A DNA stretch of 64,000 nucleotides from a virus. The DNA lies in the IMG/VR virus record IMGVR_UViG_3300028840_004648, positions 1-64,000 of that record; one strand, given 5' to 3'. Below are positions 21,618 through 42,606 of this stretch, one piece after another. The notes beneath the pieces were generated by a model. It was not told the origin of the DNA. It saw nothing but the letters and a program-made list of their open reading frames with translations, and ran no database searches. Both the position numbers and the translations under genes were made by a program. The number at the start of each line of letters is the position of its first letter. Positions within the stretch are counted from its first letter, which is position 1.

Positions 21618-22196
21618 ATGAAAATCTTGTGGAATGATTGTGAAACAACAGGTTTAGACGAAGCGTATCATGAAGTAATTCAAATTACTGCAATCGTTGA
21701 AGATGACGGTAAATTTATTGATGCGATTGATTTAAAAATTAGACCTAATCATCCAGATCGTTTTTCTGAAGAAGCGATGGAAAAAACAGGTTTGACTATT
21801 GATCAAATTATGCAGTGGCCAACTAGAGAAGATCAATTTAAGAAATTGATTGCTTTCTTAGATAAACATGTTGATAAATTTGATAAAGAAGATAAAATGA
21901 CTATGGCAGGTTATCATAATTTATTTGATCAAAAATTTATCCGTGCGTATTTTAAAGAACAGGGTCATAAATATTTTGGATCTTATATTGAATTTGAAGT
22001 AATAGATGTTATGGTTATTGCAATGCTTTTGCGTAAGCTAGGAGCACTTGATATTCCTAATTTGAAGCTTCGCACAGTAGCTGCAGCTGTTGGCATTAAT
22101 TTTGACGAGGCGCAAGCACATAACGCTATATATGACGTTAAACAAACTATTGCTGCGTTCTATAAAATGGAAAAAATGTTTGAACTTAAGGAGTAA
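21618..22196 (+). CDS. DEDDh 3'-5' exonuclease (DnaQ/dexA-like)
   Basis: Exo I motif WNDCETTGLD at the N-terminus and exo III HNAIYD near the C-terminus. Confidence 0.7.
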   Translation: MKILWNDCETTGLDEAYHEVIQITAIVEDDGKFIDAIDLKIRPNHPDRFSEEAMEKTGLTIDQIMQWPTREDQFKKLIAFLDKHVDKFDKEDKMTMAGYHNLFDQKFIRAYFKEQGHKYFGSYIEFEVIDVMVIAMLLRKLGALDIPNLKLRTVAAAVGINFDEAQAHNAIYDVKQTIAAFYKMEKMFELKE

Positions 22197-22436
22197 AAAA
22201 CATGCAAAATCAAAAGAAGGATGTAAAATACATTCCAGAATCCAGATCATGGATGGTTGACGGCCGAATTATCTCAGAAAATGATCTCAGTGAACAAGAA
22301 ATTCTAGAACTCCAAGCACTTTGTGAAGGAACAAATCAAATCCTTTATGGAAATCGTTTGGATGAAAGGAAATCTCAGCAAATTTTATAAATAATACAGA
22401 AGATTTATAACAAACTATTAACAAGGAGATACTCTA

Positions 22437-23261
22437 ATGGGTAAATTTCATGATTCATATGATAAATTTATGGAGGCTATTGGTCTAACTTGGGGTGGCG
22501 GTATTGATAAAACACGTACTGCAACTCAAACTCCAGGTGGTTTCAGAGGTTATTACTGGAAGAAAATGTCTAGCGCTTATAGTGATGATGTAGGTAAATA
22601 TCATGGTATGGGTACTTACAACAAAGACGAAAGACAACTTAAAGGTCAACGTATTGCTTACTTTGATAAAATCAAATTTAATATTGTTGATTACGGACGT
22701 GAGGGCGGATATGCAGATGCATGGGGTCCAAACGAAGATGGAAAGTTTGTTTCTAAGAATAACGCTTCAACCGATAAACCACAAAACCGTCTTCCAAAGG
22801 CTGTTACTGGTGTAGATCAAATTATGGCTGTTGCATATCCAAGTAAATATCTTGACGCTGCTATTGAAAAATATGGTGAGCGTAAATATGGTGAACGTTT
22901 CCTTCTTGGTATACGTAATGCTATTAAAAATATTGAAGTTGGAATGCCTGGTGAAGATTATGACGCTGCTCTCGAGAAAGTCGAAGAACAACTCGGGCTC
23001 GGTGGTGAAGAAGTAGAAGAAATGGAAGATATGGACGACAACGTCGGCGAAGAAATGGACGTACAAGAATTCGAAGAAAAATCTGAATGTAAAGAAGGCA
23101 AATGCGATTGTAAAGAAGGCAAATGCACTTGTGAAAAAGCAAAAAAGATGTACGATAAAATCCAAGAAATGCGCAAACTTCGTAAAAAAGGTAAAGATGA
23201 GAAAAAAGAAGAAGAAGTAAAAGAAAAGAAAGAAGATAAAAAAGATAAAAAAGATAAATAA
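22437..23261 (+). CDS. hypothetical protein with Cys-repeat and K/E/D-rich tail
   Basis: Strong RBS aacaaggaga. Tandem 21-nt repeat encoding CKEGKCD/CKEGKCT. Terminal (KDK)n repeat. Followed by a strong terminator. Confidence 0.6.
   Translation: MGKFHDSYDKFMEAIGLTWGGGIDKTRTATQTPGGFRGYYWKKMSSAYSDDVGKYHGMGTYNKDERQLKGQRIAYFDKIKFNIVDYGREGGYADAWGPNEDGKFVSKNNASTDKPQNRLPKAVTGVDQIMAVAYPSKYLDAAIEKYGERKYGERFLLGIRNAIKNIEVGMPGEDYDAALEKVEEQLGLGGEEVEEMEDMDDNVGEEMDVQEFEEKSECKEGKCDCKEGKCTCEKAKKMYDKIQEMRKLRKKGKDEKKEEEVKEKKEDKKDKKDK
23088..23129 (+). repeat. tandem 21-nt coding repeat (2 copies)
   Basis: tgtaaagaaggcaaatgc occurs twice in tandem. Confidence 0.8.
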
Positions 23262-23287
23262 TCTCATTTTAATCTAAGTTAAATTTA

Positions 23288-23316
23288 GGGTGTGAATTTC
23301 GGTTCACACCTTTTTT
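23288..23316 (+). terminator. rho-independent terminator
   Basis: GGGTGTGAA-tttcg-GTTCACACC stem followed by TTTTTT. Confidence 0.75.
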
Positions 23317-23338
23317 AATGTTTGCTTTACATCATAAC

Positions 23339-23356
23339 TTTTCATGTTATATTATA
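23339..23356 (+). promoter_or_regulatory. promoter-like repeat copy 1 (ttttcatGTTATATTAta)
   Basis: 18-nt element repeated exactly at 23409-23426. Contains an extended -10-like TGtTATATT. Confidence 0.4.
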
Positions 23357-23408
23357 TCAAATTCATATATTTGAAAAATATTGTTAACTAGCAACTATAC
23401 ATAGTATA

Positions 23409-23426
23409 TTTTCATGTTATATTATA
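23409..23426 (+). promoter_or_regulatory. promoter-like repeat copy 2, 41 nt upstream of the PARP gene start
   Basis: Exact repeat of copy 1. Same motif and same spacing as the copy upstream of the ORF at 35730. Confidence 0.45.
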
Positions 23427-23465
23427 ATGTAGCGGAAAATTAATTAAACCCCAAGGAATTAACAC

Positions 23466-24779
23466 ATGGCTAGTGTTGTAGAGCACAGACGTTATGTCAA
23501 ATCAAATGTTGCCAAAAACAATAATAAGTTTTGGTACATTACACTCTATGAAGACAATTCTGTTATAACAGAATATGGTCGGATGGGTAATTCACCTCAA
23601 GTATCAACTAAAAACTTTCCTACTGCAGATAAAGCTCGTAAGTTTTTTGATACGAAATGTCGCCAAAAAGAAAAACCAAAGAGTAATGGTGAAATCGCAT
23701 ATAAGCGGATGGATATTATTGAAGAATCAATAACTGTTAGTTCGCCAAATGCATCTCTTAAAGAGATTGCAAAAGATCAAATTGGTACCAATTCACCAGA
23801 AACACTTAAACTTGTTGAATACTTGGTTGAGCAAAATGCGCATAATATTCTGCAAAATACCACTATGACATACGACAAGAAATCTGGTTTATTTGAAACT
23901 GCTTGCGGTCCAGTTACTCAGAAAACTATTGATGAAGCTCGTACTGTTCTTATTAAAGTCGCAGACGTTGTTGAAAAATTTACTCAACAGCGTAATTATG
24001 ATGTTTTGCGTGCATCTGCATATGAAAATCTTCTTGGTGATTACTTGATGCTTATCCCTCAAGATATTGGTCGCAAATTTGATCCAACTAGACTTTATAC
24101 TTCCTTAGAAGATATTCAAAAACAGAATGCTGTTCTTGATTCTTTGGAAGCATCAGTACAAATGATTATGGATGCTAAGGCTGACAAAGTAAAAGAAGTT
24201 GTAGCTGAAACTCCTCGCCTCTTTAATACTGATCTTAAGAAGGTTGAAGATGGCAAAATTATTGATACAATTGTTAAATACTATAAATCGACAAAACAGG
24301 GTATGCATTCTTGCAATCATCTAACGGTTAAACGAGTATTTGAAGTAGATGTACAGGCAATGACGAAGGCCTTTGAAAATAAAGGTCGCCCACTTGGAAA
24401 TGTTCAGGAACTATGGCACGGAACTCGTGTATCAAATCTCCTATCAATTCTTAAAGTTGGTCTCATCGTTCCTCCAAGTAATGCTGGTCACTGTACCGGC
24501 CGTATGTTTGGTAATGGTGTCTATTTTTCTGATCAATCCACTAAAGCATTAAATTATGCTTATGGATATTGGGGAGGAAGTCGCGACAATCGTTGCTTTA
24601 TGTTCCTCGCAGATGTAGCAATGGGTAAATCATATACTCCAACGCGTTCTGGTAGTTATCGTCCTAATGGTTATGATTCAATCTTTGCAAAAGCAGGCCA
24701 ATCTGGTGTACGAAATAATGAAATGATTGTTCCTAATGTTTATCAATGCAAACTTAAATATCTTGTTCAATTTGGATAA
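23466..24779 (+). CDS. WGR-domain poly/mono(ADP-ribose) polymerase (PARP) family protein
   Basis: N-terminal WGR domain (KFWYITLYEDNSVITEYGRMG). C-terminal PARP catalytic signature: ELWHGTR, GVYFSD, STKALNYA, FMFLADVAMG (Asp at the position of the catalytic Glu) and a PARP-like C-terminal tail. Confidence 0.85.
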   Translation: MASVVEHRRYVKSNVAKNNNKFWYITLYEDNSVITEYGRMGNSPQVSTKNFPTADKARKFFDTKCRQKEKPKSNGEIAYKRMDIIEESITVSSPNASLKEIAKDQIGTNSPETLKLVEYLVEQNAHNILQNTTMTYDKKSGLFETACGPVTQKTIDEARTVLIKVADVVEKFTQQRNYDVLRASAYENLLGDYLMLIPQDIGRKFDPTRLYTSLEDIQKQNAVLDSLEASVQMIMDAKADKVKEVVAETPRLFNTDLKKVEDGKIIDTIVKYYKSTKQGMHSCNHLTVKRVFEVDVQAMTKAFENKGRPLGNVQELWHGTRVSNLLSILKVGLIVPPSNAGHCTGRMFGNGVYFSDQSTKALNYAYGYWGGSRDNRCFMFLADVAMGKSYTPTRSGSYRPNGYDSIFAKAGQSGVRNNEMIVPNVYQCKLKYLVQFG

Positions 24780-24785
24780 ATTATG
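24727..24785 (+). repeat. direct repeat copy A (3' end of the PARP gene)
   Basis: attgttcctaatgtttatcaatgcaaacttaaatatcttgttcaatttggataaattatga. Near-identical copy at 25569-25626. Confidence 0.85.
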
Positions 24786-25124
24786 AAATTTATCGAAAGT
24801 TTTGCAAAAGATATTAATCTTAAGAATTTTTGTTTTCAAATTCAAAGTAAAGACTTAGATTGGATTCTTCAAGAAAGTACACATACTGTAACATGCTTCA
24901 TATTATTTCTTAATAAGCAATATCAATTACATCTTGTACGAGATACAACATATAATAATAGAATAACTATCAAGTTATTTCAAAAAGATAATTTATTAGC
25001 TTGTGATGATATTGATGAAACCAAAAATCCATCATCTGTGTATAGAACATTATTTTATGATCTGAAAAATAAACTTCTCAATAAAACAAAACGAGAATTA
25101 AATGAAATTTTGGAGTCAAAATGA
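24783..25124 (+). CDS. hypothetical protein (inside the repeat-flanked cassette)
   Basis: ORF beginning at the ATG that ends repeat copy A. Confidence 0.5.
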   Translation: MKFIESFAKDINLKNFCFQIQSKDLDWILQESTHTVTCFILFLNKQYQLHLVRDTTYNNRITIKLFQKDNLLACDDIDETKNPSSVYRTLFYDLKNKLLNKTKRELNEILESK

Positions 25125-25567
25125 AAAGTAGAAGTGGATTTATAAGTAATAGTTCTAGTAGTTCGTTTATTTATGTATGTAAATCATGCCAATTAAATTT
25201 ACCAGTTTTAGGTGTATATGATTATGAAATCTTCATTGATAATACATTTGGTGAAACTGAGTTTGGTTGGGGTCCGAAAGAAATTTATGATACTGGGTCA
25301 AAAATTATCTTCTCATATCTTCAAGCAAAATATTTATCTTCTCCTGGATATATTGAAATGCTTGAAGATGTTATTAAAGAATATTATGGCGTTAAAGAAA
25401 TTACATGGTGGCTTGGTAATGGTATTGATGAAGAAGGCTGTTACGCATATATTGATCACCAAAGTATCGGTGACGATAATTTAGAAATGTTTGATTCAAG
25501 AGATACATTAATTCAATTTATCTTTGGTCCAGATTCTTATATCTCACTAGATAACGATAACTACTAG
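25121..25567 (+). CDS. SNSSSSSF-leader family protein (member 2)
   Basis: MKSRSGFISNSSSSSFIYV leader with an acidic C-terminus. Inside the cassette. Confidence 0.6.
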   Translation: MKSRSGFISNSSSSSFIYVCKSCQLNLPVLGVYDYEIFIDNTFGETEFGWGPKEIYDTGSKIIFSYLQAKYLSSPGYIEMLEDVIKEYYGVKEITWWLGNGIDEEGCYAYIDHQSIGDDNLEMFDSRDTLIQFIFGPDSYISLDNDNY

Positions 25568-25568
25568 G

Positions 25569-25626
25569 ATTATTCCTAATGTTTATCAATGTAAACTTAA
25601 ATATCTTGTTCAATTTGGATAATTAT
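25569..25626 (+). repeat. direct repeat copy B
   Basis: attattcctaatgtttatcaatgtaaacttaaatatcttgttcaatttggataattatga. Two substitutions and a 1-nt indel relative to copy A. Confidence 0.85.
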
Positions 25627-25800
25627 GAGTGAATCTCTAAGAGAAACATTACATGCATTTGTAGTTATATTTATTGCCAGTGCAATACCAGCATTAATTG
25701 CATACTTCTTATGTGATATTTTACCAAAGTATAAAATTACATTTAAAATCGAAAAAGGAAAAAGGAAGCAAAATGAAATATTATATTGCAACTTTTGATG
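25624..25800 (+). CDS. small membrane protein (58 aa)
   Basis: The ATG that ends repeat copy B opens MSESLRETLHAFVVIFIASAIPALIAYFLCDILPKYK. Not in the supplied ORF track, which does not list short ORFs. Confidence 0.3.
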
Positions 25801-26105
25801 ATAACTGGGCCGATGAAATGGATGTAGTCGGTGTTAAAGTTTTAACAGAAAAAGAAAAGAAAGAGCTTGACGAAGATATTGAAAAATATAATCAAGCAAT
25901 GGCTGATGATGGTCTTTGTGATGAATGGTATGTTGGTACTAATGAATCCATCGATCCAAGTTCAGTAAATACGCCATCTTTTCATGAAATTTCTGAAACA
26001 ACTTATAAAGAGTTGAAATCTATTTTCCAATGGACTTTTGGTCATTTTCCAGAATACACTGAATTGATTGATGAAGATTATTGGGAAGAACATTTTGAAG
26101 ATTAA
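25773..26105 (+). CDS. hypothetical acidic protein
   Basis: MKYYIATFDDNWADEMD after RBS ggaaaaaggaag. Lies between the PARP and MVP genes. Confidence 0.5.
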   Translation: MKYYIATFDDNWADEMDVVGVKVLTEKEKKELDEDIEKYNQAMADDGLCDEWYVGTNESIDPSSVNTPSFHEISETTYKELKSIFQWTFGHFPEYTELIDEDYWEEHFED

Positions 26106-26156
26106 GAATAACGGTTAAATTTGACCATAATATTAACACAAACCCTAAGGTGAAAC

Positions 26157-41414: not shown

Positions 41415-41986
41415 TGTCATATACGATTCTTTGTTATCAGTGTAGCAAACTAATTGAGACTACAAATATTGATCCATGTGGAGAAAGTTATATTTGTAAA
41501 CAATGTCATGATGATTGGCTTTATGCAAATATAAATCCTCAACAATACAAATACATGATTCAATTTAAACAATTTTATAATGATACTGAATCAGAAGTTG
41601 TATATGGTGAAGGATCTTTATATGATATGATGCTTGATATTAACTGTACATGTATGGGTGAATCTTTTATGAGTACTATTACAGATGCAACTTTTTGTAT
41701 TCCATTAAATCCAAAAATTACAATGGAAGAATTTAAAGCTTTAATGGAAGATTATCTTGTTGTTGATAAATGGGAAATTAAGAAAATAAAAGAACCTAAA
41801 GAGATGGTTTTATTAAAACGTGTCTTTAAACATATCGCTGATAGTTATTTTAATGATCATAAATTAAGTCCTTGGTATTTACAAAAGGTAAGTTTTGATA
41901 GAGGTCTTGGTGAAGATATTGGAAACTTTATTAATGGCAGAGATCATAAGTATTTTAAAATAATGAAAAATAAGCATGATAGATAG
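41414..41986 (+). CDS. hypothetical Cys-rich protein
   Basis: CYQC...CGESYICKQCHDD N-terminus. Confidence 0.45.
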   Translation: MSYTILCYQCSKLIETTNIDPCGESYICKQCHDDWLYANINPQQYKYMIQFKQFYNDTESEVVYGEGSLYDMMLDINCTCMGESFMSTITDATFCIPLNPKITMEEFKALMEDYLVVDKWEIKKIKEPKEMVLLKRVFKHIADSYFNDHKLSPWYLQKVSFDRGLGEDIGNFINGRDHKYFKIMKNKHDR

Positions 41987-42281
41987 ACTAAAAGATTATT
42001 CAGTTGATGAAATTAGAAGTATTGTAACACGAACTTTTAATCCTCAATTATTTCATAAAGTAGAAATGGTTGTAGTTATTGATCATAATGATAATGAAAG
42101 CTATGATAAAAATAGTGATTGCTTTATCATTAAATGTAAATATAATGAAAATTATAAAAATGAATATGTCGGTTATGATGTTATAACAGGGTTTATTAAA
42201 GAGCATACAGATATTAGTATTCAATTTTTAAAATGGGAATCTTGTTTAAGAATGTTGAAATGGAGAGAAAATGAAAAGTAG
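41976..42281 (+). CDS. hypothetical protein
   Basis: Coupled ORF. Confidence 0.4.
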   Translation: MIDRLKDYSVDEIRSIVTRTFNPQLFHKVEMVVVIDHNDNESYDKNSDCFIIKCKYNENYKNEYVGYDVITGFIKEHTDISIQFLKWESCLRMLKWRENEK

Positions 42282-42606
42282 AAACGGATTTGTAAGTAAT
42301 AGTAGTAGCTCATCGTTTATTATTCTAGTAAAAGAAAAACCTCAAACTAAATTCGAAAATTTGTGGTTTGATATGTATGTTCATAAAGATGATTGGATAA
42401 AAGAACATATTGAAGACGAACTTGAATGGTATAAAGAAAAGAATAATATAGCTAAAATTGAAAAATATGAAAAAGAACTTAACTTTTATACAGAAAATGA
42501 AGCTGATATTTATGAAATTTCAATTGATTATGATGATGAAAAAGGATATGATTTTCTTGAAAAACTAGTAAAAGCTGGTATTATTGAAAAAATAAAGGAT
42601 TGTTAA
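42271..42606 (+). CDS. SNSSSSSF-leader family protein (member 4)
   Basis: MKSRNGFVSNSSSSSFIIL leader. Confidence 0.6.
   Translation: MKSRNGFVSNSSSSSFIILVKEKPQTKFENLWFDMYVHKDDWIKEHIEDELEWYKEKNNIAKIEKYEKELNFYTENEADIYEISIDYDDEKGYDFLEKLVKAGIIEKIKDC

What the first reader, a model, noticed from the sequence alone, without database searches (positions are those of the whole stretch)
24727..25626. Two-gene cassette inside the vault-like operon flanked by 57-bp direct repeats of the PARP 3' end
The last ~50 nt of the PARP gene plus its stop and the following ATG are repeated 0.8 kb downstream, with two substitutions and one indel. The sequence between the copies encodes a 113-aa ORF and a member of the SNSSSSSF-leader family. 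The arrangement is the footprint of an insertion by recombination (a moron-like cassette carrying a copy of its target junction) or of a tandem-duplication intermediate. It shows that the leader-family genes are mobile within the genome.
Basis: seen in the sequence. Interest (0 to 1): 0.6.

Follow-up and report, generated by a model that had tools for sequence, protein, structure and literature searches.

The report
Gene-end duplication flanking a phage gene insertion
In a large T4-like phage, the last 18 codons of its PARP gene plus the next gene's start signal appear again 843 bases downstream, bracketing two small inserted genes; this looks like an ordinary scar of recombinational gene gain, not proof of an active mobile cassette.

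Summary
Window 24725-24779 and 25568-25622 are a 55-nt direct repeat with 2 substitutions. After a 1-nt indel it continues through TTATGA, giving 62 and 61 nt. No comparable match occurred in 100 shuffles, and three further assemblies carry the same sequence. Copy 1 is the end of a WGR/PARP gene. Copy 2 is non-coding and lies directly after the stop of a 148-aa gene and directly before a 57-aa membrane ORF. Between the copies are a 113-aa ORFan and the 148-aa leader-family gene.

In distant relatives, the stretch between PARP and a ~215-aa partner gene varies from ~60 nt to 4.3 kb. Orthologs of the 148-aa gene lie elsewhere, usually in tandem arrays of leader-family genes, and never next to PARP.

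The best reading is one out-of-register illegitimate crossover in a variable region. The retained PARP-end relic still supplies the ribosome-binding region of the displaced downstream gene.

Not supported:
- An active mobile cassette: no empty site, second copy, promoter, terminator, inverted repeats or nuclease was found.
- A tandem-duplication intermediate.
- Movement of leader genes within this genome.

The only available genomes are >=99.96% identical, so the empty-site test could not be done. Interest is modest.

The parts
23287..23312 (+). Terminator-like hairpin that ends the upstream transcription unit (context)
   Evidence: 11-pair stem followed by a T run, the best terminator-like site in 22000-30500.
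23326..23425 (+). Two promoter-like sites (23326-23355 and 23396-23425) ahead of PARP; probable start of the operon that contains the cassette
   Evidence: 10 of 12 and 9 of 12 sigma-70-type matches. (family D3): a 36-nt motif found at five places in the window.
23466..24779 (+). PARP gene (437 aa; WGR, PARP regulatory and PARP catalytic domains)
   Evidence: PF00644 2.3e-30, PF05406 7.7e-13, PF02877 6.2e-06; 2219 homologs, the nearest non-identical one at 59% identity.
24725..24786 (+). Repeat copy 1: last 18 PARP codons, TAA, ATT, then the ATG(A) of orf113
24783..25124 (+). orf113, an ORFan; it starts at the ATG inside copy 1 and its stop overlaps the orf148 start (ATGA)
   Evidence: no credible homolog other than itself; lowest GC of 81 ORFs (23.7%), and the frame was open in 0 of 20000 shuffles; no family match.
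25121..25567 (+). orf148, a member of a conserved ~150-aa phage family (N-terminal MKxRxGFxSNSSSSSF; motifs EFGW, YIDHQS, C-terminal DNDN[HY])
   Evidence: 32 full-length homologs in other contigs at 39-53% identity. AlphaFold2 pTM 0.83; no fold or sequence match to known structures.
25568..25628 (+). Repeat copy 2: non-coding relic of the PARP 3' end, starting at the base after the orf148 TAG and carrying the GGA Shine-Dalgarno-like element and the ATG of orf57
   Evidence: In the PARP frame there is a stop at 25548-25550 and no ATG, GTG or TTG before the relic (read); no RNA structure.
25625..25798 (+). orf57, a small predicted membrane protein; the gene displaced downstream by the insertion
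   Evidence: weak TIGR04561 membrane-protein match; always found behind the cassette.
25773..29792 (+). Rest of the variable block and its end (context): orf110, MVP homolog 26157-28622, two small Zn-ribbon-like ORFs, then orf215 (29145-29792), the PARP partner conserved in relatives
   Evidence: MVP_shoulder 4.9e-27; orf215 homologs lie next to or near PARP in L007 and L001..

Best explanation
This is the scar of a single gene-gain event in a variable region of a large T4-like phage. Two related genomes, or sister copies, both carried PARP but had different genes after it. They recombined out of register. The illegitimate joint lies at 25567|25568, the base after the stop codon of orf148 in one parent and 18 codons before the PARP stop in the other, with GATT as possible microhomology. 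The product keeps an intact PARP, then orf113 and orf148, then a 55-nt non-coding relic of the second parent's PARP end, then that parent's orf57. The right edge of the repeat (TTATGA) is where the two parents naturally stopped being alike. The 2 substitutions and 1 indel are either pre-existing divergence between the parents or later drift. In function, the repeat is a duplicated translation-initiation region. The PARP end contains the GGA...ATG signal of whatever gene follows, so orf113 uses copy 1 and orf57 keeps its native signal in copy 2. orf148 is coupled to orf113 by an ATGA overlap. All are transcribed from the promoters ahead of PARP. Shown: the anatomy, the single-copy interior, the variable neighbourhood and the lack of mobility hardware. 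Inferred: the two-parent crossover, the role of the translation signal, and the prediction that recombination between the repeats can delete the cassette cleanly.
For: Repeat anatomy and significance. Copy 2 begins exactly after the orf148 TAG, and orf148's DNDN[HY] C-terminus is native to its family, so one joint suffices. The PARP tail is conserved in relatives (NNEMIVPN..Q.L.YL.F), so only products with an intact PARP end would survive. Val, as in copy 1, is the residue found in relatives, which makes copy 2 the relic. The PARP-to-partner interval is variable: about 60 nt in L001 and L003, 2.2 kb with other ORFs and a NADAR gene in L007, and 4.3 kb here. In L032 a small membrane ORF overlaps the PARP stop. 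orf148 orthologs lie elsewhere, in leader-gene arrays. orf113 is an ORFan with the lowest GC in the window. The cassette has no terminator-like site and only chance-level promoter-like matches, and the repeat has no RNA structure. The phage encodes RecA/UvsX-like, gp32-like and DnaB-like proteins.
Against: Neither parental arrangement (PARP-orf113-orf148-X or PARP-orf57) was found. The nearest non-identical PARP is only 59% identical. orf57 has no detectable homolog behind any other PARP. With only 2 substitutions, divergence between parents cannot be told apart from drift after an in-situ duplication. The translation-signal role of copy 2 is read from the sequence and was not measured. About 5% divergence between the copies, against <=0.04% among sampled strains, means the event is not recent on the population scale, so retention of the relic needs selection or slow decay.
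Confidence: 0.55

Rival explanations
1. In-situ junction duplication. A foreign orf113-orf148 fragment was joined into a single genome at two staggered points 62 nt apart, for example by template switching during recombination-dependent replication. This duplicated the target junction, and the copies then diverged by 2 substitutions and 1 indel.
For: It gives the same final anatomy. ATGA and GATT are plausible microhomologies at the two joints. The low GC of orf113 fits foreign or young DNA.
Against: It needs two illegitimate joints instead of one. It also needs about 5% drift in the relic while sampled strains differ by <=0.04%, during which 55-nt direct repeats must have escaped deletion in a phage that encodes its own recombinase.
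Confidence: 0.22
2. Active recombination cassette. The two repeats serve as sites where the phage's homologous recombination machinery reversibly excises orf113-orf148 as a minicircle of about 843 bp that can re-insert at PARP-end homologs. This would be a coding-sequence analogue of the PeSL cassettes of T4-type phages.
For: Recombination between repeated PeSL elements produces ORFan minicircles in RB49 and phi1 (PMC2839356). The phage has UvsX-like and gp32-like genes. The repeat is 55-62 nt long. In this genome the leader-family genes are dispersed, whereas relatives carry them in arrays.
Against: There are only two copies of the repeat in 64 kb, so there are no other landing sites. All 5-6 contigs are filled. 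The cassette has no second copy. The mismatches leave a longest perfect block of 30 nt. The repeat lacks the promoter and stem-loop that define PeSLs.
Confidence: 0.1
3. Tandem-duplication intermediate. A segment that began in the PARP end was duplicated in tandem, and the first copy's content later diverged or was replaced.
For: Direct repeats with a gene end at the boundary are what a tandem duplication joint looks like.
Against: The interior has no similarity to the downstream genes or to anything else in the window apart from the family leader (blastp and blastn). orf148 has its own orthologs at 39-53% identity.
Confidence: 0.03
4. Assembly artefact or chimera of two strains.
For: The source is a metagenome assembly.
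Against: The same sequence is found in assemblies of different samples made by different pipelines. The shared exact block is only 30 nt, far shorter than the 141 in the ENA contig names, which I take to be the assembler's k-mer size. Reading frames and gene overlaps are intact.
Confidence: 0.02

Closest known systems
Mosaic junctions from illegitimate, out-of-register recombination in tailed phages (Hendrix-type model of phage mosaicism; recalled from general knowledge, not re-read here)
   Same: A novel joint at a gene boundary. A partial gene relic remains beside the inserted genes. The site lies between genes that are adjacent or close in relatives. No dedicated recombinase is present.
   Different: The relic is unusually well preserved (96% over 55 nt), and it coincides with the translation-initiation region of the next gene, which gives a reason for at least its 3' part to be kept.
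PeSL (promoter-early stem-loop) cassettes that mediate modular shuffling and ORFan minicircles in T4-type phages (PMC2839356; PMC4122927)
   Same: A T4-like phage, a variable region, ORFan cargo flanked by direct repeats of some tens of nt, and a phage-encoded homologous recombination system.
   Different: The repeat here is the coding end of PARP plus a ribosome-binding region. It is not an intergenic promoter plus terminator hairpin. It has only two copies and no stem-loop or promoter.
Morons of lambdoid and other phages (recalled from general knowledge)
   Same: Extra genes inserted between genes of a conserved block, with deviant base composition (orf113).
   Different: There is no terminator-like site and no strong promoter-like site of its own. 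The cassette is read as part of the PARP operon.
Tandem duplications in T4, such as the rII-region duplications (recalled from general knowledge)
   Same: They are produced by illegitimate recombination between sister genomes and are resolvable by homologous recombination between the repeats.
   Different: Only 62 nt are duplicated here. The interior is unique.

Membership tests
Moron | Own promoter upstream of the inserted gene(s) | tested here: not met
   in 24780-25625 there are only weak + strand sites (24878-24906 and 25353-25382, 9 of 12), at the chance level for this AT-rich DNA (51 sites found against 36.6 +/- 5.9 expected over the whole scan). The strong sites lie upstream of PARP.
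Moron | Own terminator downstream of the inserted gene(s) | tested here: not met
   no terminator-like site between 24600 and 26680; the region of copy 2 folds no better than shuffles (z = -0.49).
Moron | Inserted between two genes that are adjacent in related phages | tested here: inconclusive
   No relative closer than 59% PARP identity exists in the collections searched. L032 has a small membrane ORF overlapping the PARP stop, but it is not homologous to orf57.
PeSL cassette (T4-type phages) | The repeat is an intergenic sigma-70-like early promoter plus a stem-loop terminator | tested here: not met
   The repeat is PARP coding sequence plus a ribosome-binding region. It has no promoter-like site and no stable hairpin (z = -0.12 and -0.49).
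PeSL cassette (T4-type phages) | Many copies spread through the variable regions of the genome | tested here: not met
   exactly two copies in the 64-kb window. The rest of the 207-kb genome was not available for reading.
PeSL cassette (T4-type phages) | Excised minicircles detectable | not testable with these tools
   This needs raw reads or inverse PCR.
Tandem duplication | The whole unit between the repeat starts is present twice | tested here: not met
   the interior 24787-25567 has no other copy. The only other hits are the ~50-nt family leader at four other genes.
Transposable element / IS with target-site duplication | Transposase or terminal inverted repeats, with a short (2-15 bp) target duplication | tested here: not met
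   no transposase, integrase or nuclease domain in orf113 or orf148; no inverted repeats at the cassette ends. The duplication is 55-62 nt.
Free-standing homing-endonuclease cassette | Encodes a homing endonuclease (HNH, GIY-YIG, LAGLIDADG or similar) | tested here: not met
   no such domain. The nearest HNH gene (29789-30112) is 4 kb away and outside the repeats.
SNSSSSSF-leader family (phrog_7397-like N-terminus) | N-terminal MKxRxGF[VI]SNSSSSSF motif | tested here: met
   orf148 has the motif, and phrog_7397 matches only residues 1-18 (E = 0.0079). The function of the family is unknown.

The most novel reading that the evidence does not exclude
The PARP-end and ribosome-binding-site repeats might be working recombination sites. 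The phage's own UvsX/gp32 machinery would loop out orf113-orf148 as a minicircle of about 843 bp and re-insert it wherever a matching gene end exists. Leader-family genes would then spread through 'gene-end cassettes', a coding-sequence counterpart of PeSL shuffling, and the PARP-vault operon would switch between cargo-plus and cargo-minus states within a population.
Probability: 0.08. Interest if true: 0.55.

Novelty: new member of a known kind. Interest (0 to 1): 0.3.

Why it matters
This is a clean, datable example of how large T4-like phages add ORFans inside an operon without breaking it. The crossover kept the upstream gene intact and duplicated the translation start region, so both the incoming gene and the displaced gene stay expressed. 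It marks the PARP-to-partner interval, which here also holds a major-vault-protein homolog, as a hot spot for gene gain. It also makes a testable prediction: repeat recombination should give a precise PARP-orf57 deletion. It does not reveal a new mobility mechanism.

Tried and rejected
- **Empty site or variant alleles.** Exact-protein look-ups of PARP, orf57 and orf148 returned 5-6 contigs, all filled and >=99.96% identical. Pattern scans for the repeat found nothing in IMG/VR, the JGI metagenomes or the GTDB genomes. Megablast against GenBank phages found nothing.
- **Closer relatives.** PARP searches gave at most 59% identity. MVP gave no IMG/VR relatives. orf110 relatives at 30-33% had no informative neighbours.
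- **Donor context.** orf113 has no credible homolog. orf148 orthologs are never beside PARP, orf57 or an orf113-like gene.
- **Structured RNA or terminator in the repeat.** Rejected.
- **Read-through or frameshift fusing orf148 to the PARP tail.** Rejected from the sequence. The orf148 frame hits TAA after 3 more codons. The tail frame has a stop at 25548-25550, and no slippery site follows it.
- **Leader as a vault-specific targeting peptide.** Considered but left as a loose idea only. The leader motif has more than 597 matches in IMG/VR, while the close-relative scan with MVP found none.
- **orf113 related to the 101-aa ORF that precedes another leader gene.** No similarity.

Full report
**Observation**

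Reading 24400-26000 and a repeat search confirm the claim.
- 24725-24779 and 25568-25622 are a 55-nt direct repeat with a start-to-start spacing of 843 nt and two substitutions.
- G24729 becomes A, which changes GTT to ATT (Val to Ile in the PARP frame).
- C24749 becomes T, which changes TGC to TGT (both Cys).
- After the shared TAA, copy 1 reads ATT-ATG-A and copy 2 reads TT-ATG-A. With one indel, the similarity therefore spans 24725-24786 and 25568-25628.
- The exact 30-mer 24750-24779 occurs only at these two places, even with 3 mismatches allowed. Dinucleotide shuffles gave 0 matches.
- A whole-window repeat search finds no further copy.

**Anatomy**
- Copy 1 is the last 18 codons and the stop of a 437-aa protein with WGR, PARP regulatory and PARP catalytic domains.
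- orf113 (24783-25124) starts at the ATG inside copy 1. Its stop overlaps the start of orf148 (25121-25567) in an ATGA.
- Copy 2 begins at the base after the orf148 TAG (25565-25567) and ends in the ATG of orf57 (25625-25798), a small hydrophobic protein.
- In the PARP frame, the relic is preceded by a stop at 25548-25550 with no ATG, GTG or TTG in between, so copy 2 is non-coding.
- The repeat has no RNA structure beyond chance (z = -0.12 and -0.49).
- There is no terminator-like site between 24600 and 26680, and the cassette contains no strong promoter-like site.
- A good terminator at 23287-23312 and two promoter-like sites at 23326-23355 and 23396-23425 precede PARP. The cassette is therefore read as part of an operon that runs from PARP into a major-vault-protein homolog at 26157-28622 (MVP_shoulder 4.9e-27).

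**Source and reality of the sequence**
- The window matches a 206,884-bp ENA metagenome contig (5 differences in the 21 kb read). The same proteins occur on 5-6 contigs.
- Three other assemblies were compared over this region: ENA ERZ27256798, ENA ERZ27256783 and Logan SRR6963591. All are identical to the window across the cassette and >=99.96% identical to it overall.
- The longest perfect block shared by the two copies is 30 nt. A collapse or mis-join by the assemblers is unlikely.
- The phage encodes RecA/UvsX-like, DnaB-like and gp32-like proteins and a Gp44-type clamp loader.
- The closest PARP relative (59%, L007) lies on a contig with Gp23 and the S77 prohead protease. I infer that this is a large, distantly T4-like myovirus with its own recombination system.

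**The cargo**
- orf113 has no credible homolog. The 5.8-billion-protein word search returned only itself. A full HMMER scan of 1.84 billion representatives added only a marginal hit, 24 residues at E = 2.5e-4 in a 1559-aa protein.
- orf113 has the lowest GC of 81 ORFs in the window (23.7%). Its frame was open in 0 of 20000 composition-matched shuffles, so it is a maintained ORFan.
- orf148 has 32 full-length homologs in other contigs at 39-53% identity. Besides the N-terminal MKxRxGFxSNSSSSSF, they share the invariant motifs EFGW, YIDHQS and a C-terminal DNDN[HY].
- An AlphaFold2 model of orf148 is confident (pTM 0.83) except for residues 1-12.
- Pfam, PHROGs and NCBIfam give nothing except phrog_7397 over the first 18 residues.
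- The biochemical function of both cargo genes is therefore open.

**Comparative context of PARP**
- No relative closer than 59% PARP identity exists in any collection searched.
- In L001 and L003 (46% identity), PARP is followed after about 60 nt by a ~215-aa protein weakly related to window orf215 (29145-29792).
- In L007 that partner (29% identity, E = 1e-21) lies 2.2 kb downstream, after several small ORFs and a NADAR gene.
- In the window the partner lies 4.3 kb downstream, after orf113, orf148, orf57, orf110, MVP and two small zinc-ribbon-like ORFs.
- In L032, the best match to the PARP C-terminus (68%), a 65-aa membrane ORF overlaps the PARP stop. It is not homologous to orf57.
- The interval after PARP is thus a variable spot. 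The cassette is the PARP-proximal layer of the block that fills that interval here.

**Comparative context of orf148**
- In 4 metagenome contexts and 30 IMG/VR loci, orthologs of orf148 are never next to PARP, MVP, orf57 or an orf113-like gene.
- They usually sit in tandem arrays of two to eight genes that share the same N-terminal motif.
- In the window, the five leader genes are dispersed, with starts at 3748, 25121, 37406, 42271 and 61407 (minus strand).
- Their DNA similarity is confined to about 50 nt of coding leader, with different serine codons and unrelated upstream sequence.
- The leader is therefore conserved as a peptide. Its similarity is not evidence of recent DNA movement between these loci.

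**Mechanism**

The interior of the cassette is single-copy, so this is not a tandem duplication of a larger unit. There is no transposase, integrase, homing endonuclease or terminal inverted repeat. The simplest origin needs one illegitimate joint.
- Two PARP-bearing genomes with different downstream genes recombined out of register.
- One genome was cut just after the orf148 stop. The other was cut 18 codons before the PARP stop.
- GATT is a possible microhomology at the joint (...CTACTAG|GATTATT versus ...GAAAT|GATTGTT).
- Everything to the left, including an intact PARP, comes from one parent. The relic and orf57 come from the other.
- The right end of the repeat is simply where the two parents stop being homologous.

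Two observations fit this origin.
- The PARP tail is conserved among relatives. This explains why only products with a complete PARP end would persist.
- Val at the first substitution is the residue seen in relatives, which marks copy 2 as the relic.

A staggered two-joint insertion into one genome, followed by drift, gives the same picture and cannot be excluded.

**Consequence**

The PARP end carries the GGA...ATG initiation region of whichever gene follows it. The duplication gives orf113 that signal and leaves orf57 with its native one. This is read from the sequence and was not measured.

The copies differ by about 5%, whereas sampled strains differ by <=0.04%. Any neutral relic as old as the split from the nearest relative would be unrecognisable. 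The event is therefore old relative to the sampled population and young relative to the divergence from known relatives.

A phage with its own recombinase could delete the cassette precisely through the repeats. All contigs are filled, but they sample essentially one clone. This shows no loss in the sampled population but says little about the loss rate.

**Comparison with known systems**
- The arrangement works like a classical mosaic junction from illegitimate recombination.
- It resembles PeSL cassettes of T4-type phages in setting and repeat length. It fails their defining features: promoter plus stem-loop, and many copies.
- It also fails the moron definition, because it has no terminator-like site and no strong promoter-like site of its own.

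**Verdict**

The recombination-footprint reading is supported. The active mobile cassette, tandem-intermediate and intragenomic-mobility readings are not supported. This is a new example of a known kind of event and is of modest interest. The more unusual features of the locus lie outside this finding: the PARP-MVP operon, and the very widespread leader family of unknown function.

Noticed in passing
window 23466-28622: A full-length WGR/PARP gene and a major-vault-protein homolog (821 aa; MVP_shoulder 4.9e-27, Vault_3 1.9e-10) lie in one phage operon. This recalls the MVP and PARP4 pairing of eukaryotic vaults. The close-relative scan of IMG/VR with MVP found nothing, and related PARP phages lack MVP at this locus.
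   Followed up: partly
window gene starts 3748, 25121, 37406, 42271 (+) and 61407 (-); L013, L014, L034-L062: A multigene family is defined only by an invariant N-terminal MKxRxGF[VI]SNSSSSSF peptide on otherwise unrelated 110-170-aa proteins. IMG/VR has more than 597 motif matches. In other large phages these genes usually form tandem arrays of 2-8, but in this window they are dispersed. The N-terminus matches phrog_7397 residues 1-18/30 only, and it has low confidence in the AlphaFold2 model. It could be a targeting or processing peptide; its function is unknown.
   Followed up: partly
window 52715-53049: A ~118-nt unit is duplicated at 204-nt spacing (52720-52837 versus 52924-53041; two blocks at 95-97%) inside the ORF-free gap 52650-53175. 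The + strand folds somewhat better than shuffles (z = -1.9 and -2.8). There is no Rfam or tRNA hit. It could be a duplicated regulatory element or a small RNA.
   Followed up: partly
window 29145-29792; L001 9370-10032; L007 13101-13772: A ~215-aa protein with no family assignment follows PARP, directly or at a distance, in several distantly related phages. It looks like a conserved PARP partner. NADAR genes lie nearby in L007 and L013.
   Followed up: partly
window 41976-42606: This is a second pair made of a very low-GC small ORF (101 aa, 23.9% GC) overlapping the start of a leader-family gene (111 aa, 24.1% GC). The layout is the same as orf113 + orf148, but the small ORFs are not similar and no flanking repeat is present.
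   Followed up: yes
window 9374, 17834, 23324, 23394, 35658: A ~36-nt AT-rich motif (ACTATACATAGTATATTTTCATGTTATATTATAATG-like) recurs upstream of genes, including twice upstream of PARP. It overlaps the promoter-like hexamers and is probably this phage's early or middle promoter consensus.
   Followed up: no
window 49062-49326 and 51390-51654: A 265-nt direct repeat at 74% identity lies within two neighbouring large ORFs (48981-50264 and 51324-52649). These are probably paralogous genes without a Pfam match.
   Followed up: no
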